Source of the DNA: Psammoneis japonica
Taxonomy: Eukaryota
Assembly: GCA_008632985.1 (NCBI GenBank)
Contig: QPGO01000005.1
Span: 310,001-374,000 of the forward strand
Length of the DNA: 64,000 nucleotides
Direction: 5' to 3'
The translations under genes and the position numbers were made by a program. Position 1 is the first letter of the stretch, and each line of letters opens with the position of its first letter. Below are positions 8,401-64,000 of the stretch, one piece after another. The notes beneath the pieces are model-generated. The model did no database searches. It saw only the letters and a list, made by a program, of their open reading frames with translations, and was not told the DNA's origin.

Positions 8401-8862
8401 AGAGGAGGTCGAGTACTGCATCGAACTTATTCGTCAATTCAAGCGTGAAGGACAATCCAGCATCATGGTGCTCACTCCTGTAAGTATATTTCTCGCGTAG
8501 GTCTCCCCGGCTGGGTCTTCCGCTAACGCTCTCGCTACTCCTATCTCTTCCACCGGTAGTACAAGAAACAGCAACGTGAAATCCAGTTTCAAGTCAAGAA
8601 GCGAGGATATGAAAACATCCCAGTTCTCACTATCGATCAGTGTCAAGGACAAGAAGCCGACTTTGTTGTCCTGAGTTTAGTGCAGAAGCCAACGCGCTTT
8701 CTCAACAGAAACCGCTTCAACGTTGCTCTTTCACGTGTTCGAAAGACTCTTTACATGTTGGCGGACAAAGCAAAGTTCAGAGCCGCGAGTATGGACTCGA
8801 ACTGGGAGTGCTCGCTCATGGCCAAAGATTTGCTTTGTCTTTCTGCTTCGGAAAACTGCTAG
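5484..8862 (+). CDS. RING + IBR/RING2-like zinc fingers fused to an SF1 (UPF1/DNA2/SEN1-like) helicase; 3 exons
   Basis: Exons 5484-7183, 7270-8479 and 8560-8862 with GT-AG introns that splice in frame. N-terminal CxxC...C...C...CxxC...CxxC RING, then CPRC...GCNALTC...C...FCAVC. Helicase motifs GPPGTGKS, IIDEAG, VGDKHQL, QYR, TPY, TIDQCQGQE and RFNVALSR. Confidence 0.9.
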
Positions 8863-42797: not shown

Positions 42798-44688
42798 TTA
42801 CCAACCTGCCATCATCTCACGTTCGATTTCTCTTTCTATTTCCCTTTCTATCTCGCGTTCAATCTCTCTTTCGATTTCTCGTTCTATCTCGCGCTCAATC
42901 TCCTTTTCAATTTCTCTTTCGATCTCACGCTCAATCTCCTTTTCGATTTCTCTCTCCACCTCACGCTCAATCTCCTTCTCGATTTCTCTCTCCACCTCAC
43001 GCTCTACTTCGCGTTCTATTTCTTTTTCGATCTCCCTTTCCACCTCGCGTTCAATCTCCCTTTCCACCTCGGCTTCAATTTCTCGTTCGATCAAATCTTC
43101 GTACAGGGCCTGTTCGTACATTCCAGTGTAATATCCCATATCATAGCCCAAGCTATACTCTAAACCCGAACACACCGGACCAAAGAGTAGTTCGTCAATG
43201 ACCCATCCGGCCAAGATTGCCAAGAAAACCGCCCCTGCCATGTCACCTGCGCTCATTTGTTGTCGATACTGAACTTTCTCGCCGCTCTTGGATGCGGTAG
43301 GCTTGAAAGTGTAGGGCAAATCAAGGACGCTGCCGGAATGACAACTGTCAATGAGACATGTCACCTTTACGCCTTTTTTCATCGGTTGAACAAAATGATT
43401 AAAGAGGTTGAAGTCACGAATGTGTCCTGCCTTGGGATGATCCAACGGAATCAGCGTTTGATCGTATTCATCGTTCTTTTGTTTGAGCGAGTTCTGATCG
43501 GCTTCTAGGAATCCACCGTGTCCACTGTAATGGAAAAAGACAGAATCACCCTCATTGCTGATCTGAGTCAATGTCTTCAGCTTGGCTATCATTTTTGCCT
43601 TGGTGGGTTGTTCTCCGTCTCCATCATCAGTCAGTAGGGTGATATTTTCTTCCGGGAAGCCGTGTATATTTTTCAGATAATCCTTCATGTGGTAGACATC
43701 ATTGTGACAGCCCCGAAGTTGCCCGTTTTGACCCACGTAATTGATTCCGACCAGTAGAGCCCGTCGTTTGCCACTGGTATTTCCGTCCTCGTCTGTTCCA
43801 CCATGAAGCGTAAAGGGAGTTTCGTCCAAATCAAGTGGTCGACTGCTGGAAAGCTGAGGGACTTGAGAGTGTCCCTGTTCCTTGAGTTTGTCTCGGAGCG
43901 CCATGAGTGCATCCTGAAAGGAAAACTTTTCATCCTGGTACTTGTATAATAGTTCCAACAGGGCCGACGTGCAGCCCCTCCTGCACGTCCCTGGGGTCGG
44001 GCAAACCACTATTGTTGGCGGCGTTCATAACATCGGCGCTGGTTTGCTCGTCTTCGCATCCACTAATCATTCTTACTTCTGCGGGAATGAGTTTCTCGGC
44101 TTGCTGTAAGAATTGTTCTGGATCTTGAGGAGCATCAGCCGCGGCTTCCTCAGGATCAACGGTTGCCTTTTTACGATGGTATTCGGACATGTCACGGCTA
44201 ATGACATTGGTGAGCGGAGGCGGAGGGATTTTGGATTCCGCCTCGGCAATCTTCTCTTGTTTTAAGGCGGCTTGCTTCTTTTGAATGTCTGGTGACACCT
44301 TCTTAGCCGCAACTTGTTTTTGGATACGTGCCTCTTTGTCGGCTTGGGCCTCTCGGCTGTTCTTTTTGGCACTGACCCGTTTCTGGAGTTGGGCGTCCTT
44401 TGCAGCTTGGGTACGCTTGCTGACGACAGCAGCGTCGCCAGTTTTCTTCTTTCCGGTCTTCTTTTTGGCCTCTACTTGCTTCCGTATCCGAGCTCTCCTG
44501 GGATCTTCGGGTTGTTTAGGCTTTGGCTTTGGTTGCTGAGGCTTTGGCCTAGGCTGCTGCTGTTGTTGTTGGTACCGAGGGTTGGGGCTTTGCTGTTGTT
44601 GATAACGAGTCCCTCCGCCAGCCGTAGGACGAGGTTGTTGTTGTGGAGGGCGACCTTCGTTCACTGGGACGGATTGGTCGCAACCCAT
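42798..44688 (-). CDS. Type III metacaspase (p10 before p20) with MGC N-terminus and (I/V)E(R/K)E-repeat tail
   Basis: p10: VRMISGCEDEQTSADV...CTSALL...QVPQLSSSRPLD. p20: RALLVGINY, LRGCHNDV, FHYSGHG, DSCHSG. Two apparent 1-nt deletions at C/G runs near 43975-44000 break the expected PDPxGRAGGAC. Confidence 0.9.
42816..43091 (-). repeat. Coding 12-bp tandem repeat, about 23 x (I/V)E(R/K)E
   Basis: Translation IEREIEAEVEREIEREVEREIEKE...IEREMMAGW; synonymous codons vary between units. Confidence 0.95.
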
Positions 44689-45026
44689 GCTCACTATTGG
44701 ACGTTTGGTTGTCAGAAGTGTTTCTTGATGCTTTCGATGAGACAAAACTCGACCATCTGGATCTCGCTTCTGTTGAACGAGGATATTGCGGATAAAGATG
44801 TTAGTTGTGGCTTGTGGCCGCCATTGGCCGCCAAATAAAAAAAGAGATGATGATGGATTCCTTCTGACGGAAGTTACGACATATATATATTTATTCCGGT
44901 ACATATATTTATGATACGGTAGAACACGACTAAGATATTAGAAATAAGGATTCCGTATTCCAATATCGTTTGCAACTTCGCCATAAGACAGTCGCCAAGC
45001 TTTTCTACACAGCCGAAAGACGGACC

Positions 45027-48000
45027 ATGGCGTCGGAGCCGCAGAGTACTTCAAAGAAACGACTTCGTCCCGATTGGACGAATGAAAGCGATGACGAGAA
45101 AATCAAAGAAGTAGTAGAGCCAGAAGAAGTCACCTTAACGCCACACACACATCGGCTATTGCGACTCATTCAAGAAGGCACAACCGAACATGCCAAGCTA
45201 GCAGCTTCGCATCTCACATCTATTGCTGCGACATCATCTCCCTTGATACTGTGGGATTTATTGGGGAGACTTGTAGAAACATTAGCATCGCCATTGTGGA
45301 GCTGCAGATACAACGCAAGTCTTGCAGTCGAGGGGATCGCGCGACACTTGCCACCGTTGGACCAACAAGAGTTTCTTGCATCCAATCACGAGCAGCATAG
45401 TGACTCGGAGGGATTATGGTTAAGCATATCCGACTTGGATCGACCCATTGATGATTCAAAGAAAGCGATTGGCTTAGATTTGGTGATTGAAAAAGGTCGT
45501 CTCCTTCTGGCGTCGTCGGGAACTCAGTACGACTCTGAACTTGACGAAGCCTATCAGAGCGAAGCTCAACAGCTGAATCGGCTGGATGCTTCTTCTGGTA
45601 CCCGTGCTGATTTTTTAAAGGAAAGAATTGCTCTTCAACGGTCAATATTGGCGCAGCGATTGGGGTTTGGTGGTGTATTGGGTTCGGTGACGGACGAGTC
45701 ACAGTTCTTTTCGCATGTCTTGACAAACGAAGACCTTTTGGTGTCGTCATCGACTGCAGAGGTACCGTCGGCTACTTCACGTCGACAGCAGCATATGGAA
45801 CGAATCAATAGTCGGCGAAAAGAGGAGAAGGCTCGAGAGGATTCCTCTAACTCAGTACGAGCTCTGTTGGTTATGGAAATGAATCAACAACAAAAGGCAT
45901 GCGCTGGAGCGACTTCCCATAAGAACCCACAAACACTCTTGGGGACCGAATTCATCTATCAAATGTTTTCCCCATTTTGGTATGTGCGGCATGGAGCCTT
46001 GCTTGGGGCTCTTGCGTTACTTAGAGCTTGGAAAGGCTCGTACACGGACAGAAACAATGCAGCTTTCGGCGTGTGGCCTCATGACATTTTGGCACGATGT
46101 GTTTGTGTCTTGGCCTTGGATCGATTTGGTGATTATTCCGGCTCGTTTGACATAGCCAGTGATAAGAACTCAGACGAGATTTCAACAGATGTGAGTAGTG
46201 GCGGTGTTGTCGCACCCGGCCGAGAGGTGGCTGGGCAGCTCCTTTCAATGATTCTCGCAATGGCACCCCAGAAAGTTCAGCAAGATTGTTTGAATCTCCT
46301 ACTGCACATGACGAAGCATCCTACAGAATGGGAGGTGAGACATGGCGCACTATTGGCGTTGAAATATATAGTAGCTGTCATGATGGTAGATACTGCAGAA
46401 GGGAACGTGGAGATGATGAGTTGGCTTGAGAAGGTATCGCGTGCTGCAATTGAGAGACTTGTCGACAGCAGTGAAGATGTTCATTGCGTCGCATCACAAG
46501 TACTTTCCAGTCTTATTTCAGCAGAAGCAAAAGTTGTCTCTCAGACCAAATCGCATTTGGATTTCAATGCCTTGTGTGAGGCTGCGGTCAAACCACTCTG
46601 GGAAACCCTGGCAAAGGTTGGAGTTGTTTCTACTTCCGTCGTGGACCTTGTCGACTTGTTTTCTCGAATCGTTTGTCGCGACCCGAATCTAGTGCTTCGT
46701 TACCTGACAACGGATGGCGCCAGGACAAACCTTTCATCTCGTCATGCAGAAACGCTCCGACATCTTCTCGAGAAGCTTGCCGACTTCCTAGACTACCCTT
46801 CTCTGAATGTAAAGCTCTCTGCGCTCCGCTCTCTTGAGGTTGTAGCTCGGCCAATCTCAGCCATTATCGCTCGCGCTGCTGCTGTCGACCAGGGAGACGA
46901 CCAATCAACAGCTGCTTTTGCTTGTTGCGCTTCTGTCCTTCTCCAAAACCTCTTTGATTCCTACTTCGATGGCTCGCTTGTGCATCCCGACGACGGCACC
47001 GCGAGTCGCGAGCTAGAACGACTAACTAGCGCAAGGGATCACGCGTGGAGGAAGCTGGTCGATAATTTCCAGGCCCTCTTCGAGAATACCAGAGAGCTAT
47101 ACATGAAACTAGCAGTATCTTTGATTCTTCGCTACTTCGGAATCAGATGGCCGGATAGTAGCAGGTCAGCGGAAGATGGAATATCCTTGTCAGGTGCTGG
47201 AACGGCTATCCACACATCCGACTCGCTTGACCTCCATGCAGTTCGAGCCCGTACTGCACGAGTTCTTGTGTATTTTCTTTGGGCAAACATTGCTCGTACA
47301 GAGTCGGTCGATAATATTGCTGTCGACGTTGATAGGCTGCTTTGCGTCACGCTGGCTTCGCATCTGCAATCCCCTTGGCCCGACCATTGCGAGGCGGCGT
47401 GTCTGCTCTACAAGGAACTTGGCCTTTTGCTGACTACAAATGAAAGCCTCCAACCGCTGCTTCAATCGTCGCTTGAGACCTGCCAGTCCCTATTGTGCGA
47501 TATGCTGGTTCTATCGCCCTACTGTATGCGGCTCGGAACAAATAAAGAATCCGAACAGGAATTGGCCGCCTTGTGTAATAGCGCATTCACTGCCACGCTT
47601 GTTCGACAAATTGACGCAAAGAATGGAACTCCAAGCCAACCCCTTGATTCGGTACAGGAACTCGTGAACCTGTGGAAGGAGTCTTTCAAAGCAACAGGCG
47701 CAGCTATCGATGCGAATGAAGATCTCCCACCTCCGGTTAGTATGGAATCAGTACGGTTGCAAGCGGTGATAGCAGGATGCATGCTTCCCTTTGGTAGGAA
47801 ATCCCTCCCACCGAAGCTCACCCCAATGATTCGATCTCTCATGACAGCTCTAAAGAATGAGTCAAGCAGATCTCGACAGAGAGAGATCTCTTTAGACATT
47901 GTTCAGATGTTGAAGCTTCTATCTATGGGAGACGATCTGAGAGTGAGAGATAGGGTGTTAGAGAATATCTGCGTCCTTGTGGAACATGAGAAATCATCTA

Positions 48001-50766
48001 CTGGCCTTGACACCAATGCCAAAGGCTTCGCTGCGGCCGCGTATGTTCTCGAGCAAATAGTCCATCAGCTTCCAAGTGACTACACCATAGAATGCCTTCC
48101 TTCAATTTGGGCGAGAATAAAGCTATTGAACAGGTGTAATCAATCTGCCACAGAGGAAGTGGTGCTGGAGAACTCCTTACGCATTTTGGGTGTTGTGTCG
48201 AGATCGCTACGACGTGATGCCGACTCCTTCGCTCACTTGATGGACTTTGCGGTCCCATCTCTCGTGCTTCTCGCTTGCGAGTGCCCTTTTCAAAATGCCC
48301 GATGTCTTTCCCTAGCAGCGTTTGAGTCATTTTGCAGGGTCGACGCTTCGAGGACACTCAAGAAAGGATTGAGAATTGTAGTGAAGTATCTCAGAGACGC
48401 TGAAAATGACGCATACAGGCTTGCGAGTTGTACCTTGCTGCAATCGATCATCGAATCTGCCGGGACGGGAATTTGCGAGTTCGTCAGGTACCTTCTGCCT
48501 ACTGTGATGTCACTGATGACTGATCCGTTAATAGATTGCGCGAAAATGGCTGCTCGGAGTTTTGCTGAGTTAGTAATGATTGCCCCTCTAGTGCGAAGAG
48601 ACCAGTCATATTTTGTTGAGGCAACCGACGTCAACGATTCTGCCACGAAGGTGATTGATCATCTAATTCATGGATTACCCCTCCCGCCTTGTCACCTGCC
48701 AGCTGCAATCACATCGGATTTGAACCAGACCGGCACAACTCTGAGGCAGTACCAGAAAGAAGGCGTAGCTTGGCTAAGGTTTTTGCAGACGGTAAACCTC
48801 AACGGAGCTTTGTGTGATGATATGGGAACGGGAAAAACGTTGCAAGCTTTGGTGGGGATAGCAATTTCGCATTGCCAGGCGATCGAAGCTGGTGAGACCC
48901 CTGTCTCTTTGGTCGTGTGTCCTGCAACGGTCGTCGGTCATTGGGTTGCAGAAATCAAAAAGTTCTTTCCCTCCGAAAACATATTTAGAGTTTTACCGCT
49001 TGTCGGCCGCGCAAAAGACAGAAGATGTCAGTGGAATCGAGAGATCTCAGCTTGTAACATCGTTGTCACGAGCTACTCCTATCTCCGTAGTGACATTGAT
49101 TTGCTCGCAAATAAAGCGTGGCGATATTGCGTCTTAGATGAAGGCCATCTACTCAAAAATCCCAAAACAGGTATGTTTATTCTACCGTCGCAAGTTCACT
49201 CTCGCGTGTGTGATCTCATTCTGAAATCTCGTTTCTTTTCTTCACTTCAAGCTACTGCCGTCGCGTCTCGACGCATCCGCGCAAGTCACAGATTGATACT
49301 CACTGGAACTCCCGTTCAGAATCGCGTGCATGAGCTCTGGGCAGCTTTTGATTTCCTCATGCCAAACTTCCTCGGCACGGCAACTTCTTTTACGAAAGAG
49401 TTTGCAAAGCCAATTGCATTGGGGCATGCTCTTGACGCATCTGCAGAGAGCGTGGGGATTTCCATTCAGAAGTTGAAGTCCTTACACCAGCAAGTGCTGC
49501 CTTTTATTCTGCGGAGAGAGAAGGGGCAAGTTCTAGCAGAGCTTCCTCCGAAGTGTATCACGAATATACCTTGCACCATGAGTGTGGAACAAGAACGTCT
49601 CTATCGAGAGTTTTGTTCCGGAATTCGAGGCAAGAAATCTCTTGCGGCGTTGCAAAAGCTTGTGAATGAATCATCACACGAACTGCACACTGATCGTGAA
49701 TCGCAACGTCCAATAGCAGTCGGGGCTGATGTGCTTAAATCTCTACTTTACCTAAGGCTTATATGCACTCACCCCTCGCTCGTAAGTGGGCGGCAGAGAT
49801 CAGGTGCTGGCCTTTCTGACGGTAGGCCAATTGATCGTTTTGACTCCTCCGGCAAGTTGCTGGCGCTGAACGAACTGCTCCGTGGCGCCGGGATATGCGG
49901 TGATGAGATCACGGCTGCTGACAACGACACGTCTCTGTTCTTTTGTGACGATGAATGTGCTGACCACGACTCCTCTCTCGATGTTGAGAATGGGACTTCT
50001 CATGATCGTGATCAACTCGATGCAACCGCTGGCTCAGACCAAAGACCAGGTGGATCGAAGTGCTTAGTATTTGCTCAATTCAGCCAGAGCCTTGATGTAA
50101 TTGAGAAATTACTCTTCTTGCCTCACATGGCTTCGTTGCGGTACCTGCGGATGGACGGGAGCACTCCTCTCAAAGAACGAGACAGAATTGTTGAGAGCTT
50201 CAACATGGATGAAAGCATCAAGGTTATGCTGCTAACAACTCGAGTGGGTGGACTCGGACTCAATCTCACAGGTAAGTATGCTATTATCATGCAGCGCAAC
50301 CTTTGTAGAAACGTGCCTGAACCCGTTATGCTTGCGTGCATTATCAGGCGCTGACACCGTGATTTTCGTTGAGCACGACTGGAATCCACATACTGATTTA
50401 CAAGCAATGGATCGATGCCACCGCATTGGTCAAACCAAAACTGTGAATGTGTACAGGCTGGTCACGTCCGATACGATAGAGGAGCAGATAATGAAAATAC
50501 AGGACGCCAAACTTGCAATGAGTGAAGCAATCGTAAACACGGACAACTCCACAATGTACAGCATGGGAACCGATCGGCTACTGGATATCTTTGCATTTCG
50601 AGGTAAAGCAGCTCAGAACGACGGTGTCGAAAGCTGTGGCAAGAGCGAATTTGACGGGTTTGATGATTCATCCTATACTTCTGACGACTATTCGAGCCTT
50701 TCGTTGAAGGAGTTCGTCCGTGGATTCTTACGCGACAGATCTCATCACGGCAGTGAAGAATCTTGA
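45027..50766 (+). CDS. BTAF1: TBP-associated SNF2 ATPase BTAF1/Mot1
   Basis: HEAT-type [73 protein letters not shown] and [13 protein letters not shown]; introns near 49171-49251 and 50272-50348. Confidence 0.93.
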
Positions 50767-50835
50767 TAAAAGCGCTGATCTCTTTGTCAGGCTTCACCAT
50801 GGGAACGCTACCAGTACTTTTAATACCTGGATATC

Positions 50836-51453
50836 TTATAACCCATTTTCAACAAAGCCCATTGCCTGTAACACAAGTCCCGCGCACTTTCGTCGAGCTA
50901 TGTCAAAGTCGTTCTCTGAGAGAAGTGACTGCATCTCTGTTTCATCCTTTTCCGATGGTCCCAGGAGATGAAATCGTTTCGCCACATCTTGAATTAAACG
51001 ACGGGAACGCTCTTCTTCGCTCCCTCTTTCGTATTCCTGGGCAGCCATTTTCGATAGAACTACCCCGTATCCTCCGCGTCCTCCATCGGAGCCATCCCAT
51101 CGACCGCGTTGCCAAGCTAGAGCTAATACGAGCTTCACTTCTTCAAAGGGAATGACACCATTTTCACCTAAGCTAGGACTTCGAAGATTATCTACCAGGG
51201 AAGATCGTGACTGGCGATCTGAAAACTGTTGACGACAAATAGCAGCACAGTCATGCCCCGTACCAACCGCTGAGCCCCAATTCCATTCCGCAGACGTCCA
51301 GCCTGAATTGGGGATGTTGTAAATTTCTCGATTACCCGAGGACATTATCATAAACGAGAAAGCTGATACTCTTGAGGCAATAACAACTGCCAAGTAAAGC
51401 AGCACCGGTAGTGCTGTCCGTGTCTGAGCCTTTTTCATGGCCAATGTTGCCAT
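50836..51453 (-). CDS. Conserved-looking hypothetical protein, probably plastid-targeted
   Basis: Signal peptide plus VSA-FSF; Trp/Gly-rich motifs SGWTSAEWNWGSAVGTGHDCA and WQRGRWDGSDGG. Start Met 51453 or 51438. Confidence 0.7.
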   Translation of the reverse strand: MATLAMKKAQTRTALPVLLYLAVVIASRVSAFSFMIMSSGNREIYNIPNSGWTSAEWNWGSAVGTGHDCAAICRQQFSDRQSRSSLVDNLRSPSLGENGVIPFEEVKLVLALAWQRGRWDGSDGGRGGYGVVLSKMAAQEYERGSEEERSRRLIQDVAKRFHLLGPSEKDETEMQSLLSENDFDIARRKCAGLVLQAMGFVENGL

Positions 51454-51494
51454 GGTTACGTCGCCAAAATGCCAAAAAATGAAAAGTGGAGGAC

Positions 51495-51579
51495 GTGAAG
51501 TCGGACGGCTCACGCACGTACCAAATACGTCATCATCGTCCGTCCTTCTATCCAAGTTTCATGACACTGCTCGAGAAAC
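51495..51579 (+). repeat. Left copy of an ~85-90-bp direct repeat bracketing the large island
   Basis: GTGAAGTCGGACGGC...CCAAGTTTCA...CGAGAAAC aligns to 61300-61389. Confidence 0.9.
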
Positions 51580-53479
51580 AGATAGAGAAGACACAGCGAG
51601 AGTGACGACACTCCTCCGGCCGATTTCAAGACTGGCGGCATGGACCATCAGAGCTGCCATGGATGATGTGGGATCAACCTTTGGCCGTTGTTACAGGAAG
51701 ACAAGGGCCCAAGGTTGGACCCGACGGAGCAGCGACACAGCAGGGGCGGGGTGGGGGGGGGTGAAGTGCACAAGATGATTGTTCCCTGCAAGCTGGCGAC
51801 TGTGATGACACAAGGACCAGCAAGAAGAAGAGACATGGAAAAAGGTGCCTGACTGTCATCCACAAACAGTCTGGCTGGCCATGTGCACCAGCCGCACTGG
51901 TCAAAAAACTGATGACACCGTCCCCTGACCCCCCCTCCTGCCTGGCACGTCTGGGCCAGAGACAGTGCAGGTCACAGACAGGCTGACAGGGAAGGCATGA
52001 ATGTCAGCAATCAACCAGTGAGATGCATTGCAAACCAGATGACCCAAGAGCAAGTGGACAAAACAAAAACACAAGGGGCTGTTTGGGTGGCAGATGCCAA
52101 ACAGATGGGAGACAACAACGTGCCTCAACAGAGGTGTCCCGCAAGGGGGGCACTCTGATTGGAGACATGTCTGTGCCAAATGTCTGTGCCACCAGTGGGG
52201 CGCAAGGCACAATGATGGCGCACAATGCATTTTCAGGTGCTGAGGCTGTGGAACTTCAACAAAAAATCAACTGGACAGGCTTTCTTGTGACCGCCGCTGA
52301 CAGAATGCAAAACCTGTTTGTTGAGGAGGGGGTGGCACACAGGAGCAAACAGCAACATGCTCAGACTGCAACATGCCCTTTCTTTGTTTCTGCAAGGGGG
52401 CACATGCAGGCAGCCACCCACATCCACAGGTTGTTGTGCTGCTGGTGTGCCAAGTGCCAGACAGACTTTGAGTGAACATGGATTGTCAGGACAAGTGGGC
52501 TGTGCAAAAGAAGTGGATCCTTGTCACCCATGCAAGTGACATGTGCACCAGCACCCAGCTGTGCACATGGTTTGTCAGGCTCAAATTGCACTGCGTTGAC
52601 CTTGAAAAACTTTTCTGTCGGTGTCATGGGTGATGGATGGTGAGACCCATGATGGCGCACTTGGTGAGATGATCTGATCTGAGTTTGAGGCAGCAAAGCC
52701 ACACGCGCATGTTTCACATGTCCAGAACAAAGCAGATGTGGTCAACTCCAATTGCAATGACCACTTTTGCACATGACAAGCTTGGAGAGCAAGCTCCATT
52801 TTGCAACCCAACATTTGACAAGAGAATGACCTGAATCATCATCAGAGCTCCACAGAGCTCTCACCTTCAGAGAGCAGCTTTCTTGACAAGTGATGCAACT
52901 GGTGTGGAACAAGGGGTCTGCTGATGTTGCCAGCAGGATGAGTTCATTGATGATGTGCCTGTGAATCAGTGTGCCATGAATGTCATCCTTGGTTTGGATG
53001 TGTTTCAGATCATCAAAGAACTGACCCAGATCTGGGGTGCATCACCACACTTGTCATTCAGGCAACCTGTGGCCTGTTGCTGGTTTGCACATTGTTGAAA
53101 AGTGAGCTGTGTGTTGGCAAGAGTGTCAACAGCACCCTTTGTGGTGTCTTGAGATTCACCATGATGGAGGTGCCCTCATCATGCATGGAAGTGTGAGCAC
53201 TTCCAGGATCAAAAAGCTGTTTTGTGCTCATTTGGCTCACAAACCACCAAACAAAACAAGATGGGGTTGTGTCAAAAAAAAAAGAACATGTGACAAGACA
53301 AGGCTGCAAAATGATGGAGCAGAAACACATTGAGAGGTGACATGCACAACAGACTTCCCTGCAAACTGGTGGCTGTGACAACATGAGCACTGGTGAGAAA
53401 GAGTGAGAAGGAGATCTCAGAGAGATCTGCCTCATCTGCTGTCCAAAATGCTGCCTGACCATCATCTGCAAACAGCCTG

Positions 53480-54110
53480 GCCATGTGCAATGGTGCTGGC
53501 CAACTGACAGGACCAGGGCAGGTGTGCTGCCTGGTGCATTTTGCTCTGCCAATGTTGAGGATGCAAGAGCCAATGTGGATGACAGAAGCACAACAGAAAG
53601 TGTTGTGGTCTCACTCCTCCATGCTCCATCCTGAAACCAAGCAACCTGTGAAGATGTTGCAGCAAGCTGATTGACTGTTGGAGTGTGGTGGCTTGCCATG
53701 CTGTCAATGTGCACCCTCCAAAACCTGCAGTTCTTCTGCAGAAATTCTGAGTTGGCTCACACTGATCAAGACCTTGCGCTGGCAAACACAACTTAAATCA
53801 CCATTGGGCACCCAAAAGAATGATGAGATGAGCTGCAATGCGGTGATGACATGCTGGGACAGGAACAACTTGCTGTGCCCAATGCAAGCCTGGGATGCAG
53901 CAGTCTTCCACATCTCCTCAACAACCTCCCTGACTCCAGTCAATGTTTCAGCATGGATGGTCAAGCACCTGCACTTCTTTGCTCCTGTTCCAGACTTCTT
54001 CAATCCTGAAAAACCAGGAGTGCACAATTGTCATGAGCTCCAAGCCATCACAATTGCCGTGAACTGCAAGCCATTGCTCATGCAAACAATGGCCCATGCT
54101 GAGCACAGTT
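53480..54110 (+). pseudogene. Possible tyrosine-recombinase remnant of a DIRS/Ngaro-like retroelement
   Basis: Across frames: GAF..A(M)LR..E, HTDQDLALA...ITI, QKNDE...V....LLCPMQAWDAAV..I.S....TPV. This recalls the QK.DE...LCPV.AW pattern of such recombinases. From memory only. Confidence 0.4.
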
Positions 54111-55507
54111 GATGGTGCAACAACTGCTGCGCAGCTCACTCTCTTTGCTTGAGCGGCAGTGCAGAGATGAGAGTGGCTGATCAGAGATCAAAATTTTGCA
54201 AGTGAGTCATGATGGTCATGTCAACTGCAGAGCCATTCTTGGGTCACTGGGGAAATGTTCAGGGCTAGAATCTGTGACCTGAGGGGGGGGGGGCTTGGTT
54301 TGATGGGTCATTGTTTGTTGGTCCTGTGAGCCAGAGCAATTTGCACAAATCATGTGCAAGTTGGGACAGCAGGAGGCATGGACAAGTGGATGAGTGCATC
54401 TTGTCATTTGGCTGCTTGTGCACACCTGACATTCAGCAGACTCAATTTCCTGCACAAAGGTCACCTGTCATTCTCTGTTGACAATGCTGGATTTTGTTGA
54501 TGATGATGCATGAATCTGTGTCATGTGCTGCAGTGCTGTTGAGTTGCTGCTGGGGAATGGGAGTCTTGTGCCATGATGCAGAAAAGCATGCAGAAAAAGT
54601 TGTGCTCCACAAAATTCTTGGGGGGGAGAAAGCTGACTCAGATTTTTTGCCTTGTTTCATGTGACATTTGCATCCCAGTGACCATGTCAGTTGGAGGCCA
54701 GTGGTGGCTTAAGGTGCTTGGTCCTGTGAATGAGCTCAACACTTTGCTCTCTTCAGCAATGCTCAAGGGAGAGGCACTTGGGGATGATGATGCAGCACAC
54801 CTGCAAAAAAACAGTGACAAGGGTGTCACGGTCACGGCGCAGTTTTTGACATCACACATTCACTGCACCTGCCACAGAGCTTGTTGACAGAGCTCTTCCA
54901 TTGGTGTGTGATGAGAAGCTTGTGTCTGCAGGCATTGATGGTGCCTTGGTTGATGCATGAGAAGCTTGTGTCATCTGCAGGTGTTGTTCCAGTCTGTGCA
55001 TTGACAGGTTCCATCATTGACAACAAAAGTGTGGCCCAAGAGGCTCCTCAAGACAGAAGTGTCCAAAACACCAACTGGTGAACAGAGGAGTTTTCTGCAA
55101 AGCACAAGACAGCACATGATCTAGGATGCCAGCACTCTGGGTCTGACTGCCTGTCATGATCTGGGACTTTCCTCACTGTGATCACAAAAATGGTGTTGCT
55201 CAACAAGCCAGGCATTTTTTTTTTGTTTTAGCTCAAAACTGGCTGAGTTTGCAGGGCTCTGTCAGAAGCAAAACCACACTCCACTTTTGTCAAAGGGCAA
55301 TCTTGTGTCCAGCCCCACAGTCAATTTGGTTCTTTGAGTTTGTTTTGTTGTTTCTCTTGCTGCCGTCTCTCTTCATTCAATGCAGTCACTGCCCCTGATT
55401 TGTCTCATTGCATGTTTCTTTAAAAATTTGTGCTCCATGCCACCACCTTCATGTTTTTTACCTTGCCACAGATTTTAACTGCCGCTGAAGTTGTGGCTTG
55501 CACACTG

Positions 55508-55931
55508 GCTTGGTTGATTGCTGCTGCTGCATGCTTGTTCTGCACTGGCATTTTTTGTGCTTTCAAAGGCAGGTCATCCCTCCCATTGGTGTGTCACACC
55601 ACTCCTCTCTCTCCTCCCTCTTTCATTTCTTTTCTGCTTCCCTGGACAAGCTTGGCGTTGATTGCCATTGCTGCTGCTTGTTCTGCACTGGCATTTTGTG
55701 CATTCAAAGGCAAGTCATCTCTCTCCCGTTGGTGTGTCCCACCACTCCTCTCTCTCCTCCCTCTTAAATTTCTTTTCTGCTTCCCTGGACAAGCTTGGTT
55801 GATTGCTGTTGCTGCTGCTTGTTCTGCACTGGCATTTTGTGCATTCAAAGGCAGGTCATCTCTCCTGTTGGTGCATCCCACCACTCCTCTCTCTCCCCCT
55901 CTTTCATTTCTTTTCTGCTTCCCTGGACAAG
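55508..55931. repeat. Three tandem copies of a ~142-bp unit
   Basis: Units start at 55508, 55650 and 55793; each ends CTTCCCTGGACAA. Confidence 0.95.
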
Positions 55932-57569
55932 TTTGCTTTTTCTCACCTCTGTTCACTCCTGGAACCCAGACTGCAACCTGGGTTGTCAGCTCTGTCCTGC
56001 TTTGCCCACCACACATGCACAGCTCATTGCATTTCTGTGGGTGATCCTTCCATGCTCCATCCCTGACTCTGCTTTGCCAACTCACCCCTTCCTTGGGTCA
56101 TGCACTTCACATCCTTTACATTGTCCGCTGTCAGTTTCCTCCTCCTTGCAGTGTCATCTTTTTGTCCTTCTCCAATTTTTAAGTTGTGATGGAAGCCTTG
56201 TTGCAGAAGTTCAAGCACACGAACATGGCAAATGCATGGATGAAACAGCAAGTCATTCTTCTGGTGATTCAGCGGTGCTTCTGCCAAAATGTGTCTGGCC
56301 CACCACTGTCGGCACAATGTTTTCCACAGGAACCATGCACACATGTCCCTGTCTGCTTGGCTTTTCTTCAAGTCCTTGCACTCTGCCAGCAAACCTTCCA
56401 AAGTGAAAACTGCACGTGCACAAAAAATGATGCACCAGGCTCACCTGTTTGAAAAGACACACAACTCTGACTCTTTGTCAGGTGCATCATTGTGGCTCAC
56501 CTGTTGTTCATCTCCTGGTGTTGTCTTGCACATTGTTCCTCTTTCTGTTGAGCACATTCCAAAAGACCTCTTTGCATGCATTCCAGAATGCTTTTTTTAA
56601 CCTTGCCATGCTTCTCTTGAACTCCTGCAATGCCATTTTTGTACAATCACCTCCCAGCACTGCCAGCTCTTTTTCAAACGACAACAATGAATTTGTGGTG
56701 CAGCCACAAAAGTTCATTGACAACCTTGGTCAACATTGATCCAACTGTTCTCTTGCTCATGACTGGAGTGTGATCCATCACCTGATGTCCCATCGGAGTT
56801 GCCACAGAACTGGAGCTGCCCCATTCCAGCTAGAATCAATGCAATTCTTTCATTTGCAGGTTCATGAGCCCTGCTGTTGCAGGGCTCATGGTCACCGCAA
56901 TTCATCCCAAAATTGCCAACAAACTTGTTGGCAGTCTCTCTGATCATCTGTCCTCTTGCAACTCCTGCTCTGCCCAACTCACTGCCAGGAGCCACCCTGC
57001 CACCATCTGGTTCTGTCTGCCCTGTCACAACTGAGCCTTCCATCTGCATGCACTCTTTTCTGCATCTCAAGACTGTGGCATTTGTTGTCATCACCCATTG
57101 TTTGTGCCACCAGAAGTGGCAAAGTGAGCGCACTTTTTCAGAGTTGGCTTCTGTGTTTTGTCATTGGAGGCATCTCCTGATTCACTGCCTTTGCACCAAC
57201 TTTCTTGGCTCATCTCTTTGATGATGGTGGAACATGTCCAATCTTCTCACCATTTGAAAAGTCTCTTAACAAGTGCAACCACCACATTCAGGCAAACGCC
57301 TGACTCCGATTGTGGCAAGGTGATGTGGCAAAGTGCAACTGAGCTCTGTGCAATCCAAGAGCAGACATGATTCTTGGCCATTTGGCAACATGGATGAAGC
57401 ACAACAATGTGGAATTTGAGCATGCTCTGTTTGATGTTTTGGGCAGAACAAGAGCCAGATTGATGTCATCATGATGAAGGCCAGAGATGCAGCAACCCTT
57501 GGTGCAAGAGTTTTGCTGCAAGTGGAAGGTGTGCCAAAACAACACTTTTCTAGATGGGTGTTGCATTGG

Positions 57570-57680
57570 GGAGCATTTGTTCAAGCACTGGGTGGCAATG
57601 GCCAACCCTGTTGTTGGAATGGACCACAACAAAAACACACAACATTTCATTGGCAAAGGTGCATGATCATGTGCTGGCCT
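57570..57680 (+). pseudogene. Possible Myb/SANT-like (Harbinger ORF1-type) remnant
   Basis: W.....NPVVGMD(Q/H).K..TF.W..VHDH pattern across frameshifts resembles LCxAW...DPIVGxDQ...FW. Confidence 0.25.
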
Positions 57681-58089
57681 TCTCCCACAGCTCACAGTTT
57701 GGTCTGGTGCAAATGTTGCACAAGCTGCTCACAACAAGTTCACAAGAGCTTGAATCTGGCAAGGTGCTGCTGTGTTTGATTGTGTTCTCCTGCAGCTCTT
57801 AGTTTGGTCTGCTGCAAATGTTGTGCAAGCCATTCACAACAAGCTCCTGAGAGCTCAAATCCTGCAAGGTGTCATTGAATCCTTTGCCAAGCTCTGTTGG
57901 TCAGGGTTCACAGGGACATCTGACAACTTGGCACTTTGACCCTCTCCAAATTCTGCCACAGCCCATCATGGACTTCAACGTTGCTTGACAACAAAGTTCC
58001 AACTCAGATTGGCCAGTGGATGACACATGAGGAGGTGTTGGAGCCTGCCAGTTCCATGGTGGGTTGGGATCACAGGTTGCACCACTTCA

Positions 58090-58410
58090 TCTGCCAGAAA
58101 CAAACAGCAACACTTTGCAAGAAAGAGTGGCACTTGCATCAATCTGCTTTGACTGCTGAAAGCAAATGGCGCTGCTTCACATGAAAGAGATTGTGTTTGT
58201 GGAGATTGTGATGCTTTGTCTGCTGGAAGCAAACAGCGCCACTTTGCAAGCAAGAAAGAGCCTCCTTGTTTTGGCAAAAGTGCCTCACATGGCATCTCAC
58301 TCCTTTGTCTGTCAAAAGCAAACAACAGTGCTTCAAAACAAAAAGGGCAGGTTGCGGCATTTGCAGAGATGTTGATGCTTCTTTTGCTGGAAGCAAACAG
58401 TGCTGCAGAG
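58090..58410. repeat. About 5 degenerate copies of a CTGCTGGAAGCAAACAGC-like motif at 65-90 bp spacing
   Basis: Copies near 58091, 58153, 58220, 58309 and 58385. Confidence 0.6.
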
Positions 58411-59097
58411 CAACAAGCACAACAAATCCCACTGCAGCCATTTTGCCATTTCCAAATGTGCACTCAGCAGGGTGTGCCTTTTGATGGTTTTTTGTCATGC
58501 AGTTGATGCAGCCCTCAAACATCTCAAGCTGCACTGCAGCAATTCTTTTTTCAGAGAGTTCTGGGGTGATGAATGAAGTGCCTTCTCACTCATGGCCTTC
58601 ATTTGATCATGATTCTTGCTGAGTGTCAGTGTCGCCTCATCTGAGATGGCTGCCTCTTCCTGCAGCTTTTCATTCATGCCAATTGCTTCCAGGCCACTTG
58701 TCAATGTGGTCCACAATGTGTTGGATTGTCATCTTCTGCAGCAGAGAAGGGAACCCTTCCAACACTTTCCAGGTCCAAGTTGTTGTCTGAGCCACTGGGG
58801 CTGCTCTTCAGTTGCTCTCTGCTGTTGTCATTGTCGTCATGCCCAAAATTGTCAAAGTCAGACAGAGCTGCCCCCTCCTCTGTTGTTCAAATCATCCTTC
58901 TCCTGAGCTTTGTGGGCATCTGTCACCACCACAACTTCTTGGTTTGATGGGTCATGGCAGTCTGGCTGAGCATGATGCACTGCACTGTGACTTGACACCA
59001 TGACACAACAATGTGACAGACAGTGGTGGCAGAGGAGCTGCGACATTGACCATGCATCACATGACACTGCAAAATGGTCTACAAAGCCACAAAAATC

Positions 59098-59200
59098 TCA
59101 AACAAGGAGCTTTGCCTTGGCCCTGGAGAGTTCACCTGCTGACAGGGTTCCATTGTCATGCAAAGCCTTGAGCTTGGCAAGCTTTTCTGTGACATCATCA
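59098..59200 (-). pseudogene. SHOCT-like C-terminal domain remnant
   Basis: DDVTEKLAKLKALHDNGTLSAGELSRAKAKLLV* fits LxxLKxLxDxGxL(S/T)xxE(F/Y)xxAKxKLL. Confidence 0.55.
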
Positions 59201-60404
59201 ACATTGTTTTGTGAACCAGCTGCCACGGCAGAGTTGCAAGCTGCATTTTCCATGGTGAAGAGGGCCTCAAACCTTGAGAAATGCCCTTCGTGATGGTGTT
59301 CTCCAAGCTGCTGACATTGCCCACCCACCAGGCATTGCCACTGTGTGCTCCCAATGCCTGTCCATTCCTGCAGTTTGTGCACAGTTTGTGTGTTTGATGG
59401 AGAGAGCTGCCCGCATCAGTGCATTTGTGCATCACGCAAAAGCAGCTGCAAACAAAAAAAACACTTGCACACAATCTCAAAGGTTCCTGTTGTGAGATCC
59501 ATCAGCTGAATTCCTCCCCTGCCATCAAAGGTCAACAAGTGCTTGTGCTGTTGGCATGGCCCCAGCACCAACATCATGGCCATGCCTTTGCCCAGATTTT
59601 TCTTGCACTCAATTTGCACCTTTGTGGACATTTCTTTCTGAATGTTCCACTCCTTGGCCAACTCCTGCTTCACTGGATTGACAAACAAGGTGGGGTGCCA
59701 AAAGACCAAGAATTTCATGTCTGACTTAACTGCCTTGACTTTGGTGATGCAATCACAGTTTGGGGTGTTGGCGGTGCTTCCATTGATGCTGATGATGTGA
59801 TCATCATGTTCTGGCTTGCTGACTCACCCATGCCGGAGAGTTTGCTTGTGCAAATCACCCACCATTTTTCTTCATGGAGACACCAATCCTGGCTGCTTTT
59901 TGATGGTTGCAGCAAGGGCGGGCATGGCGTCATTGCAACAGGAGTGGCAAAAGGACAATGAATGTGGAGAAAAGTGATGTGTGGCAAGAACAACAGGAGT
60001 CATTGTAAAACATGGCGATGGGTGATGGCACCACACTTGCACATCTTTTTGAGAAGTTTCAACTCATTGTTTTGGCAGAAATGACTGTGACTGACTGCAG
60101 CCAGGCCCAAGGTCACTGCTGGTGACATGGAAGTGACTTCAACTGGGCAGTGTCTCATGCACACCACCTGATTTTCTTGTGTTTTTGTGTGTGCAGTGTT
60201 GAGAAATGCATCGGCTGTTGAAGAGCTGCTGCAATGGCTTTGTCTCATTGCCTTGGTCTCTCCTTGCAACTTTGCTGTCTTCCAAGTCTTTGTCTTCTTG
60301 TGTGATGTTGGAGCCAGCCCCGCAAGGATGCCAAGAGCTGGAGCTCTGCAAGTTGGGCTGTGGAGCATCAACTGGAAGCTGGTCAGCATGGTCACACACA
60401 ACAA

Positions 60405-60428
60405 GAGAGAGAGAGAGAGAGAGAGAGA
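60405..60428. repeat. (GA)12 microsatellite
   Basis: Seen directly. Confidence 0.95.
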
Positions 60429-60609
60429 TTTTTGGCAACATGAGCACACAACAGCCAGAGAACAGGGCATCATGATGAGTGTGTCCTGGAAGGTTGCAGC
60501 AGCTGTGAAGCAAAATTTGAGCACTCCAATCTTTAGAAAATGAAGCTGACCTGGCTGCTTGATGGCAGGGCAATGCAAACCAAGAGCTGTCTGAGTTTAA
60601 CAGCACTCA

Positions 60610-60760
60610 TGGTGCCTTTGTCTGCCAAGGATCAATTTTGCAAAGCTGCCAAAAAGCCAGAGTTTGACACAGGTGAGGAGCTGTTTGACAATTTTGAGCA
60701 AGTGTTGGCTGGCACAGTGGAAGACAAATGGGGGAGATTGGCTGATGAAGCTCTGCATGG
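60610..60760 (+). pseudogene. Possible LTR-retrotransposon gag-like remnant
   Basis: FCKAAKKPEFDTGEELFDNFEQVLAGTVEDKW reads as real coding sequence and recalls diatom retroelement gag-like ORFs. From memory only. Confidence 0.3.
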
Positions 60761-61299
60761 TGCATGGTGAAAAACTGTCTCAAGCACCTTCTTGGCAAGG
60801 GGAGTGAGTCACTTTGGTTTGCAGCACAGTGGTTGAACACATCTGCCAACCCTGAAAAACTGTTCAAATCTGAAGTGCGGGCTCAAAGGGAGGTGTTGGT
60901 GCCCTGCTGCTGCTCTTGCAAGCTCACAGCAGGAGCTGCTCCACACAGGTTGTGAGGAGCCCCCAGAACAAAAAGATGGTGTCAAAATCATGACTGCTTC
61001 ATTTCACCCAAACAAGCTCTCAGAGCTTGCACAATGCTGCAAAGCCAGCATTGATGACAAGACACACTGCGCCAACGACTGCTCGACCAGGAAATGGCCA
61101 CACCTTTGACTGTTGCTTTGGCTGTGTTCGTTGTTTTGGGGCTTTTCTTGATGGTGCTGTTGCCTTCGTGACTTTGACTGTTGCCACAGTCAACGCACGT
61201 CAAAAGTCTGTTTATTTGACTTTGGCTTTTCAGGCACTGAGACACCCTGAGCATGATGCATGGTCTGTCTGGGAGGTCTGCGGCAGGAACAGCGAAGAG

Positions 61300-61389
61300 G
61301 TGAAGTCGGACGGCGCACGCACGGCACCAAATGCGACAACATTGTCGGTCCTTCCGTCCATCCAAGTTTCAAAAAACTACACGAGAAAC
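61300..61389 (+). repeat. Right copy of the ~85-90-bp direct repeat bracketing the island
   Basis: Aligns to 51495-51579 with two small indels. Confidence 0.9.
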
Positions 61390-61627
61390 TGCGAGAAAAG
61401 CCGTTTTCTCTTTTATAAACCTGCTTACCGCTCTCCTCTCTAGAGAGTAGAAGTTTACAATTCATGTTAGAGAGGCAAGTGGGTGCTCTTTGTCGTTTTG
61501 CAAAAAGGTCCAGGAAGATTGAACGACAATAACAGACAACCAGTGGCATTTAACAACCTCTTGGTGATACCATAAAGAGAGATATGTTTAACATTGGGAT
61601 AGCACCCAGCCAAAAGGAGCATCGATA

Positions 61628-63724
61628 TCATGACGGTGATAGTTTGTCAAGTAGGTCTAGCACCTTGTCTGTTCGAGATACGGCAATCCTCCCAATTTCG
61701 TTTCCGACAGCGCTGACAACGTTGAACGGCAGACACGAAAGAAGCTCCATTGCTTGGTTTTTCCTCATGGGATAGCTTGTGTATGGCAAAGCCTGCCCAA
61801 TACCCTTCTCCCCCAACATTCCGTATACGAATGCAGTTACCGCCCAATTGGTGACATCAAAACACCCCGTGGCCTCCATATTGTCGGGAACGGCGTTAAA
61901 GAGTAGCCGGTAAATCTCTTCTTCGCCGTGGCATGCCTTAGTATGGAATTGGTCTGATGTGAAGACGGGGAGTCCATAGCCCATTTGGTCGGAAGTGTAT
62001 CGTCTCGTTCCACATTTGTCTTTTCCCCCGACAGAATCCCCCACGAGGAAACAGTAGGGCACGTCCCCACCCGTCAATTCTGCAAAGGCAGATACAATGG
62101 AGTTGCTTACGGCTTTGCATTCGATGCAGAGTTTACCAACCTTTGAATTTTCACGATAACGACGCAGAAACTGCCCCACTTCTAGTGCATCTGGGACGCC
62201 TCGGAAGGAGACAAAAAAGTTGTCTTTCTCAAAAGAACTATCAACAACTTGTTGCAAGTTCTTGACTGCCATGTGATAATCACCGACGGTGTAGAGTTTG
62301 GGCTGACGCAACGCAGCGTTGAACTGCGGCAAAAGCCCCCATAGTTTTATCAGGTACGACTCCATGTCGGTGGAGGCAAACACCCCACGAAAGCGATTGA
62401 CAACGTCGGCAGCCCGTTGGACGGCCTTTTCTAGCTTGCATGTAGTCAAACACAGTGAGTAGAGACGATTCGCTTCTTCGAGTCGATCATACATGTCCTG
62501 GAGTGTCAAGGGATTGCTTTTTGCTTGTGGCGACGAAAGGCTCTTTCTTTGTTCTGGATTGCCGCCACTACGAATAAGGCTGCGTCTCCTGGAGTCCTTT
62601 CGTTGCTTCAGAAAGAGCTGTCTATCCACGCAATCGCAGGAAAGCCCAAGGCCGCAAGAAAATGGAACGGTTGCTTCAATACATACAACCACCTTGGCAA
62701 GTTGTGCTTTGGTCAAGCTGTTCTTCAAAACCCTCACAGCCACAATTGATGCAAGAAGCTTGTCCTTGATGTATGATTGAAGCTCTTGTAGTTGTGGTTT
62801 CTCCGGTTTGACACCAAACATTGTCATAACCATATCAACGAGTAGGTCCTCCCCGTGTTTGTAAGCGTTGCCATCAGCATTTTGAGGAGCAAAGTAATTG
62901 ATACCGTTGTCCCCCATCAATACCAAAATGTCCTCCACCAATTCGTGCAAGTTCGCACACAAATGTCCACTATCCATTTCGAAACTCACAACGTTGGAGA
63001 AGTAAATCGCCAGCATCTGAAAAGGGTCGGCACCATGGGATACTTCAAACATGGTATCGATTCCCATGAGCGGTGCCCGCTGGATGTTTGACATGCAATC
63101 ATGAATGCAAATGGCCCATGATTCCAGTTCCTCGTCGGACTCTTGTCCGTTCAAAAAGTCAATGCTACACTTTAGATCCAAAACGAGACGGGTCAAATAG
63201 GTAGGCTGTTCTTTCTCAAACAGTTCTTGTCTCGTTTTCCCAAAGGCTCGAGTACCCCCAGCGTTGACAAAGCGAAAACATCCACCCTGGCTGGCCTGCA
63301 GATTCAGCGACCTCCCGGCCAGAAAGTTGCAGAACTCTTCATACGAAACAAACCCCTTGCTTTTCACGTCCATGGCGTTGAATGTCTGCTGTGAATCGGT
63401 AATCGATAGGCTCGATGCTGTCTTCATGAAATCCTTTTTGTACAACCGTTCCTCTGTATCATTCGAAGTCGTCTGAAACCACAAGTTGTTGTACAGCGCT
63501 AGATAACGCAGAAAGAGCTCGAACTCATTTCTGTCAATGAATCCATCCTTATTCACGTCGGAAGCGCGGTATGCTCTCATAATAGCCGACTTGTGCCGAT
63601 ATCTCGGCCACACAGTGCGGACAGCCGCCTCCAATTCACAAATGTTGAGTTTGCCGGTGCCGTTGAAGTCCAGCCCATCAAAGGTGCGCAAGCACGTTTC
63701 GGTGTCAGGAACGGAGACAATCAT
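61628..63724 (-). CDS. EF-hand Ca2+-binding protein with a large helical, degenerate HD-like domain
   Basis: EF loops DFNGTGKLNICE, DVNKDGFIDRNE and DVKSKGFVSYEE. Then WAICIHDCMS, ADP...LA..F(SN)VV, IEATVPF, W.LLP..N..LR...YT and F..FRGVP; intronless, 698 aa. Confidence 0.8.
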   Translation of the reverse strand: MIVSVPDTETCLRTFDGLDFNGTGKLNICELEAAVRTVWPRYRHKSAIMRAYRASDVNKDGFIDRNEFELFLRYLALYNNLWFQTTSNDTEERLYKKDFMKTASSLSITDSQQTFNAMDVKSKGFVSYEEFCNFLAGRSLNLQASQGGCFRFVNAGGTRAFGKTRQELFEKEQPTYLTRLVLDLKCSIDFLNGQESDEELESWAICIHDCMSNIQRAPLMGIDTMFEVSHGADPFQMLAIYFSNVVSFEMDSGHLCANLHELVEDILVLMGDNGINYFAPQNADGNAYKHGEDLLVDMVMTMFGVKPEKPQLQELQSYIKDKLLASIVAVRVLKNSLTKAQLAKVVVCIEATVPFSCGLGLSCDCVDRQLFLKQRKDSRRRSLIRSGGNPEQRKSLSSPQAKSNPLTLQDMYDRLEEANRLYSLCLTTCKLEKAVQRAADVVNRFRGVFASTDMESYLIKLWGLLPQFNAALRQPKLYTVGDYHMAVKNLQQVVDSSFEKDNFFVSFRGVPDALEVGQFLRRYRENSKVGKLCIECKAVSNSIVSAFAELTGGDVPYCFLVGDSVGGKDKCGTRRYTSDQMGYGLPVFTSDQFHTKACHGEEEIYRLLFNAVPDNMEATGCFDVTNWAVTAFVYGMLGEKGIGQALPYTSYPMRKNQAMELLSCLPFNVVSAVGNEIGRIAVSRTDKVLDLLDKLSPS

Positions 63725-64000
63725 AATTTATTGTTTCCTGGCTTTCGAGTTTTAAAAACAGTCAAGATTTTTCTTCGCAGGTTTAATCTACGGTAATCAA
63801 TCTATCTCGCAATACAAGGAACAGGCTCTAGCTACTAGAGAGCAAAATGAGGACTTGTACGAGTTGGCAGCATGCGGCAGCAGCGCGGCGCAGATGGCGG
63901 CCATCGAAAAAAAATGTCGGAGTTCTGTGCGTGCGCGAAAAGGAGCGAGCGCTCGAGCGAGCGGGAAAATACCGTACCACGTGTTGTGCACCCGCCTAAT

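What the first reader, a model, noticed from the sequence alone, without database searches (positions are those of the whole stretch)
51495..61389. Direct repeat bracketing the island gives a before/after view of TA->CA/TG change
Seen: an ~85-90-bp sequence just upstream of the 50836-51453 gene recurs at the far end of the island. The left copy has gTAc (51519), aTAc (51526), cTAt (51549) and tCGt (51537). The right copy has gCAc (61325), aTGc (61332), cCAt (61359) and tTGt. All three TAs in the island-facing part of the right copy are replaced, while most CGs are kept. One site differs the other way (left cTGc at 51568, right cTAc at 61378), but there the left copy is the island-proximal one. 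Inference: TA is ancestral and mutation spreads outward from the island. The repeat is too long for a normal TSD and may record a duplication-associated insertion.
Basis: partly seen in the sequence, partly recalled or inferred. Interest (0 to 1): 0.8.

Follow-up and report, generated by a model that had tools for sequence, protein, structure and literature searches.

The report
Spare promoter beside TA-erased transposon island
An old duplicate of a short stretch upstream of a diatom gene sits just outside a block of dead transposons and has probably lost its TA steps to a local mutation process that leaks a short way out of such blocks; the repeat alone is too small to prove this, and better controls elsewhere in the genome carry the case.

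Summary
The repeat is real: 51481-51590 and 61287-61400, 83 of 102 columns identical, two copies found in the genome. The named differences are correct, but 11 transversions and a fourth, unchanged left TA were omitted. Transitions are enriched at TA/CA/TG columns (5 of 24 vs 3 of 78, p=0.017); the 3:1 asymmetry alone is not significant. It is not a target-site duplication: the island's right end is an hAT-like terminus at 61249, about 37 bp short of the copy, and the left end cuts a repeat mid-body. It looks like an old local duplication of probable promoter DNA. Direction and leakage are shown by other loci: a captured copy of neighbouring genes lost 80 of 84 TA, 71 to TG/CA, with 1 of 298 reverse changes; a 3.5-kb duplication lost 9 of 12 TA within 300 bp of a same-family fragment against 13 of 103 beyond. 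Leakage is not universal. It resembles the TpA hypermutation reported in Bigelowiella natans. This scan already noted the process, and leakage, at many other loci of this genome. No outgroup or empty allele was found.

The parts
51481..51590 (+). Left copy of the repeat; lies 28 bp upstream of the ATG of the minus-strand gene, probable promoter (inferred); keeps 4 TA and 9 CG in 51489-51590
   Evidence: a spliced-looking contig of run X2 stops at 51463 (weak hint only)
61287..61400 (+). Right copy; host DNA outside the transposon terminus; CA/TG at 76, 83 and 110 bp from the terminus, TA at 129 bp; 10 CG
61250..61286 (.). 37-bp spacer between terminus and right copy; resemblance to the gene's start region is not significant (p 0.2-0.6)
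61150..61249 (-). End of an hAT-like DNA transposon; the same first bases occur in 4 of 6 other family copies aligned; hAT dimerisation domain 3.6 kb inside the C21 copy (same element inferred)
51596..61249 (.). Island: nest of decayed pieces of at least six dispersed repeat families, nearly free of TA and poor in CG
51596..51720 (+). Repeat family A cut mid-body at the left junction (4 of 4 other copies continue leftwards); resumes at about 53530 after an inserted piece; CG largely kept here
54580..58940 (.). Family C pieces (relatives carry an XPG_I match), interrupted by family D
55119..56850 (+). Family D piece with a sharp shared terminus at about 55119; used for the halo test in other copies
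60467..60882 (+). Family E piece; a relative lies upstream of a reverse-transcriptase RNase H match (LTR retrotransposon-like)
50836..51453 (-). Intact 205-aa gene, no Pfam family, conserved in diatoms and brown algae (47-63% identity); tail-to-tail with an SNF2-family gene
61628..63727 (-). Intact EF-hand ORF whose 3' end faces the right copy
46309..51026 (.). Host gene DNA of which pieces are captured in TA-free blocks on contigs C49 and C398; the polarised control

Best explanation
The repeat is an old local duplication of unique host DNA, probably the promoter of the 50836-51453 gene, now separated by a nest of dead transposons. SHOWN: two copies only; both are outside the transposon-homologous DNA; the right edge of the nest is a true element end and the left edge is a break inside an element; in this genome TA is converted to TG or CA on both strands in repeat blocks, faster than CG decays, and at some insertions this reaches 250-300 bp into host DNA. 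INFERRED: the right copy lay in such a halo (about 110-128 bp wide) and lost three ancestral TA while keeping its CG; the left copy kept its TA because it is under selection and/or because its junction was made later by a deletion; the single opposite site is a TA lost from the left copy or an ordinary change. The process is aimed by position on the chromosome (silenced transposon chromatin), not by sequence repetition. The chemistry is unidentified; most likely adenine deamination at TpA, as proposed for Bigelowiella, acting beside ordinary CpG decay.
For: Two copies. Terminus shared by 4 of 6 other copies; left break. Captured copy on C49: TA 84 to 4 kept, 40 TG, 31 CA; reverse 1 of 298; CG 70 of 128 kept; 11 of 13 Tyr codons now Cys/His; A>G after T 42 of 85 vs 10 of 127, 13 of 122, 15 of 191 after A, C, G. 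C61 duplication: 9 of 12 vs 13 of 103, p=1e-5; 9 vs 0 asymmetry near the fragment, 13 vs 23 beyond; 2 of 9 CG lost; that flank has only two copies. Family D: 7 TA vs 50 expected in 0-250 bp at 6 host-flanked termini. Repeat: 5 of 24 vs 3 of 78, p=0.017. Transversion divergence of the copies (11 of 102) lies within that of island pieces from their relatives (4-16%).
Against: Only 4 clean sites; 3:1 has p=0.31; one of the 5 'eligible' transitions is not a clean TA pair. No outgroup. No halo on the left side, nor at 2 of 2 host-flanked termini of the same family (20 TA vs 24.5 expected) or 2 of 2 of family C (19 vs 19), nor on the other side of the C61 fragment (25 TA in 250 bp). Family D halos also lack CG (39 vs 82) and could be unrecognised repeat DNA. 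The copies are 3-4 times more diverged by transversions than the C61 control, so ordinary change contributes. Promoter function is untested.
Confidence: 0.62

Rival explanations
1. The duplication is much older than the island (for example a tandem gene duplicate whose second gene was destroyed), both copies were long under selection, and the TA differences are ordinary substitutions of unknown direction.
For: 11 transversions vs 8 transitions and two indels; 10 CG in the right copy; one site opposite and one left TA kept 13 bp from the island; without a halo the posterior for TA-ancestral is only about 0.37.
Against: Transitions cluster at TA/CA/TG columns (p=0.017) and the 128-bp TA-free run is rare (0.8%); no remnant of the gene in the island (score 34-36 vs shuffled mean 35); extension to the ATG not significant.
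Confidence: 0.2
2. The duplication was made directly by the hAT-like element (alternative or aberrant transposition), so both copies started identical at the island's birth; later insertions and a deletion removed the left end. Compatible with the halo reading; it differs only in the cause of the duplication.
For: An hAT-like end faces the right copy; a fragment of the same family sits between the copies of a 3.5-kb tandem duplication on C61; maize hAT elements make tandem direct duplications (PMC3744419, abstract and passages); ages are compatible.
Against: The copy does not abut the terminus (37-44 bp gap, no significant homology in the gap); no second terminus of this family in the island; no 8-bp TSD identified; 0 of 6 other family loci showed a flank duplicated within the roughly 9 kb fetched.
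Confidence: 0.3
3. A RIP-like, homology-triggered process recognised the linked repeat itself and mutated it.
For: Both copies carry at least one candidate TA loss (3 right, 1 left).
Against: The 3.5-kb, 90%-identical C61 duplication keeps its TA beyond 300 bp from the transposon fragment and loses them in only the copy next to it; the left copy keeps 4 TA.
Confidence: 0.05
4. The repeat is part of a mobile element (LTR, long terminal repeat of a small element) or a structured RNA, and the paired changes at 51519/51527 are compensatory in a hairpin.
For: The two changes keep a 3-bp stem around a 5-base loop (seen in the sequence).
Against: Two copies only; folding z-scores -1.5 to +0.3, and the right copy does not form that stem in its predicted fold; no Rfam match at E<=1; two TA losses give a complementary pair half the time by chance.
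Confidence: 0.05

Closest known systems
TpA hypermutation in Bigelowiella natans (bioRxiv 10.64898/2026.01.13.699255; read abstract, introduction, results, discussion: parts 1-3 of 5; supplements closed)
   Same: TpA to TpG or CpA on both strands, confined to regions of foreign or mobile DNA; TpA-poor, CpA/TpG-rich blocks with transposon domains; enzyme unknown, adenosine deaminase proposed.
   Different: Here a diatom and transposon nests, close to saturation (TA o/e 0.04 vs Rho 0.45 there), joined with CpG loss, with leakage into host flanks. The preprint's main text has no hit for diatom, flanking, boundary, spread or CpG. There it was seen directly in mutation-accumulation lines; here it is inferred from copies.
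Repeat-induced point mutation (RIP) and RIP leakage in ascomycetes (PMC9453070, passages; C-to-T direction also)
   Same: Dinucleotide-specific transitions that erase transposons and leak into neighbouring single-copy DNA.
   Different: Opposite direction (TA is removed, not made) and not triggered by duplication as such.
CpG decay from DNMT5 methylation of diatom transposons (PMC9998398, passages only; deamination of 5mC is recalled)
   Same: CG loss to TG/CA inside the island; methylation spreading near transposons is mentioned in the paper.
   Different: Cannot remove TA; TA loss is stronger and reaches further than CG loss. The paper has no hit for TpA or deamination.
[quoted passage not shown]
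   Same: Direct duplication of host DNA with an hAT end between the copies.
   Different: There the duplicated segment abuts the element end and an 8-bp TSD marks the junction; here there is a 37-44 bp gap, no TSD found, and only about 110 bp remain.

Membership tests
Target-site duplication | Both copies abut the two termini of one element | tested here: not met
   Right terminus 61249 vs copy start 61287-61294; left junction is inside an element; no second terminus
Target-site duplication | Length typical of the element (8 bp for hAT, PMC3744419) | tested here: not met
   102-115 bp
LTR or dispersed repeat | Further copies at other loci | tested here: not met
   2 matches in each; the tool warns that counts are lower bounds
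hAT alternative-transposition duplication | hAT end between the copies | tested here: met
   (domain and terminus on one element is inferred)
hAT alternative-transposition duplication | Duplicated segment abuts the end; TSD at one junction | tested here: not met
Bigelowiella-type TpA hypermutation | TpA to TpG/CpA, both strands, TpA-specific | tested here: met
   (on the captured gene copy; the repeat itself gives 4 sites)
Bigelowiella-type TpA hypermutation | Confined to blocks of mobile or foreign DNA | tested here: met
Bigelowiella-type TpA hypermutation | Raised de novo rate in mutation-accumulation lines | not testable with these tools
   9 differing letters between X1 and the island, 0 in the flanks; none of them at a TA
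Bigelowiella-type TpA hypermutation | Same enzyme (ADAT2-like proposed, unproven) | tested here: inconclusive
   9 matches to PF00383 in the genome, not examined further; such genes are housekeeping
RIP | C-to-T changes that raise TpA | tested here: not met
   TA o/e 0.04; reverse changes 1 of 298
RIP | Triggered by duplication, both copies hit | tested here: not met
Structured RNA | Stable shared fold or Rfam match | tested here: not met

The most novel reading that the evidence does not exclude
Diatoms carry a TpA-specific DNA mutator that is recruited to transposon chromatin, strikes in a burst when an element is first silenced and overshoots its ends by 100-300 bp, leaving a permanent halo at original insertion ends but not at junctions made later by deletion. 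The two sides of this island (halo at the true terminus, none at the broken left end) and the two sides of the C61 fragment would record that order of events, and promoters next to insertions would be rewritten by it.
Probability: 0.3. Interest if true: 0.8.

Novelty: new variant of a known kind. Interest (0 to 1): 0.45.

Why it matters
A position-guided A:T-to-G:C mutator in a stramenopile would extend a process that my searches found described only in one rhizarian preprint, and its leakage would let transposon insertions rewrite neighbouring promoters and genes (Tyr to Cys/His). It also distorts dating and annotation of diatom transposons. This repeat adds one small example; the C61 duplication and the C49 captured copy are the better test cases.

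Tried and rejected
Outgroup: exact pattern in metagenome contigs, 0 hits; 60 homolog loci fetched, upstream regions of those among 41 listed loci with more than 150 bp upstream gave best E 0.17, no alignable promoter; EF-hand ORF in 0 of 60 loci, SNF2 neighbour in 8 of 60. Empty allele: three runs of one sample; no joint linking the copies among 15 of 17 joints shown, island depth 63-68 like the flanks; contigs drop rare variants, so absence is not shown. No RNA holder listed. Remnant of the gene or of the right flank inside the island: none. Homology extended to the start codon: rejected. Other terminus/TSD of the hAT-like family: not found; a candidate in the C21 copy lay inside another repeat. 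Pfam on 14 island ORFs and 4 relatives' ORFs: nothing over cut-off; homolog search for a relative's ORF: none. Pfam on 88 of 90 listed low-Tyr ORFs of related loci gave the few family hints used. Tet/JBP search: no match, control did not ring, uninformative. Polymerase-eta-type WA signature (recalled) rejected: AA is not raised over CA or GA. Sigma-70 scan irrelevant for a eukaryote. Literature: searches listed no paper on TpA loss in diatoms (listings only); one search found the one preprint. Halo test: 17 family D loci scored, 6 kept as host-flanked by my threshold (at least 0.024 TA per base at 500-1000 bp); L007, L015 and L017 were left out; 2 of 4 kept for family R, 2 of 3 for family C.
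Full report
Observation. Positions 51481-51590 and 61287-61400 are direct copies: 83 of 102 aligned columns match, with 8 transitions, 11 transversions and indels of 1 and 4 bp. The score is 89 against at most 22 in 72 other tiles. Not mentioned: the transversions, a left TA at 51583 that survives 13 bp from the island, and two CG lost by transversion (6 of 9 kept). Searches of the 91-Mb genome gave exactly these two copies (the tool gives lower bounds). Contigs of run X1 cross both junctions at even depth; X1 may be the source sample.

Host and surroundings. The left gene (50836-51453, minus strand) has 329 homologs, the named ones from diatoms and brown algae, so the host is most likely a diatom (inference). 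The left copy starts 28 bp upstream of its ATG. A contig of run X2 skips two intervals that fit GT-AG introns and stops at 51463; another begins at 61432 over the EF-hand ORF. This is a weak hint that neither copy is in those transcripts and that the left copy is promoter DNA.

The island. TA o/e is 0.04 and CG o/e 0.13, against 0.58 and 0.98 in the first 51.4 kb. It is a nest of at least six dispersed families, whose other copies are also TA-poor while CG varies. Its right edge is an element end at 61249, shared by 4 of 6 other copies aligned; the C21 copy has an hAT dimerisation domain 3.6 kb inside (E 1e-7). The right repeat copy begins 37-44 bp outside that end, and the gap is not significantly like the left side (p 0.2-0.6). 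At the left edge, homology to family A starts at about 51596 while 4 of 4 other copies run on leftwards: a break, not a terminus. No second terminus was found. So the repeat is not a target-site duplication, LTR or dispersed repeat. Its transversion divergence (10.8%) is within the 4-16% between island pieces and their relatives, so duplication and island may be of similar age, without proof that one caused the other.

What the repeat itself shows. Transitions fall on 5 of 24 columns that can interconvert TA with CA/TG and 3 of 78 others (p=0.017; four are clean pairs). The right side has no TA for 128 bp beyond the terminus, a run found at 0.8% of host positions, yet 10 CG in the first 125 bp. 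Lost sites lie at 76, 83 and 110 bp, the kept one at 129 bp. The left side has 4 TA in its first 125 bp. The 3:1 asymmetry has p=0.31. No outgroup was found, so the pair cannot be polarised; a rough posterior for TA-ancestral is 0.86-0.92 per site with a halo and about 0.37 without.

Direction, tested elsewhere. Pieces of the intact genes at 46309-51026 are captured in a TA-free block on contig C49. Over 2198 aligned bases, 84 TA gave 4 TA, 40 TG and 31 CA; 1 of 298 CA/TG became TA; 70 of 128 CG were kept; 11 of 13 Tyr codons became Cys or His; A>G occurred at 42 of 85 A after T and at 8-11% after other bases. The change is TA-specific, strand-symmetric and faster than CG decay.

Leakage, tested elsewhere. 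On C61 a 3.5-kb tandem duplication (90% identical, two copies) has a 220-bp fragment of the same hAT-like family beside one copy. Within 300 bp, 9 of 12 TA of the far copy are CA/TG in the near copy and 0 of 4 go the other way; beyond, 13 of 103 and 23 of 112 (p=1e-5). Only 2 of 9 CG were lost there. Six host-flanked termini of family D have 7 TA where 50 are expected in 250 bp, but also 39 CG against 82 (6 of 17 loci scored). Against generality: 2 of 2 host-flanked termini of the right-end family and 2 of 2 of family C have normal TA, and the other side of the C61 fragment is TA-rich. The C61 case also shows that duplication alone does not trigger the change.

Mechanism. Shown: TA>TG/CA in repeat blocks, with leakage at some ends. 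Inferred: targeting by silenced transposon chromatin; the right copy lay in a halo about 110-128 bp wide; the left copy was spared by selection or by a later junction. Not shown: the enzyme. Adenine deamination is the published proposal (bioRxiv 10.64898/2026.01.13.699255); 9 deaminase-domain matches exist in the genome but were not examined; a thymine modification is not excluded (uninformative). X1 differs from the window at 9 letters in the island and none in the flanks covered by its main contigs; four lie at CG versus TG/CA, none at a TA.

Comparison and novelty. It works like the Bigelowiella process in motif and direction, and like RIP leakage in geometry (PMC9453070 passages), but fails RIP's direction and repeat trigger. 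The preprint's main text does not mention diatoms, CpG or flanks; its supplements were closed. Five other searches listed no paper on TpA loss in diatoms (the library lacks most subscription papers). Earlier notes of this scan report the same process and leakage at many loci of this genome; I took the preprint lead from them and tested direction and leakage on loci of my own.

Verdict. Observation confirmed; interpretation partly supported. The repeat is an old duplicate of probable promoter DNA that likely records a short TA-loss halo, but it carries four informative sites and no outgroup. New variant of a known kind; interest 0.45.

Noticed in passing
G000:C61:49690-57165 (L151, L155): 3.5-kb tandem gene duplication with a 220-bp hAT-like fragment between the copies; clean one-sided TA-loss halo of about 260-300 bp. 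No look-alike note in the scan index.
   Followed up: yes
G000:C49 about 247500-251020 (L153) and C398 (L085); source window 46309-51026: Pieces of the SNF2-family gene and the 205-aa gene captured in order inside TA-free blocks present on two contigs; a short motif like the hAT-like terminus lies about 480 bp before the first piece (may be chance).
   Followed up: partly
window 39300-40700: Second, smaller TA-poor block (9 TA in 39300-40700) with CG only partly reduced and a 240-bp tandem duplicate at 39614-40071.
   Followed up: no
window 52400-60982: Run X1 differs from the window at 9 letters inside the island and none in the flanks; alleles, culture drift or assembly errors are not told apart.
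   Followed up: partly
window 51596-52300 and 61050-61249: CG loss fades over 200-400 bp inside both island edges while TA loss runs to the edge.
   Followed up: partly
window 44934-51453: An SNF2-family match lies next to the homolog of the 205-aa gene in 8 of 60 metagenome loci: conserved tail-to-tail pair.
   Followed up: partly
L064 1620-4520, L147, L150, L152: The hAT-like family carries long internal arrays of a roughly 188-bp unit.
   Followed up: no
window 37329-38190 and 42801-43100: A 418-bp tandem duplicate at 93% identity; a caspase-domain ORF with a long EREIE-type C-terminal repeat.
   Followed up: no
L054 46-1633 vs 7351-8520; L063 1485-1939 vs 4380-5357; L070 3282-3648 vs 7554-7920: Further local direct duplicates near TA-poor blocks that could serve as before/after pairs.
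   Followed up: no
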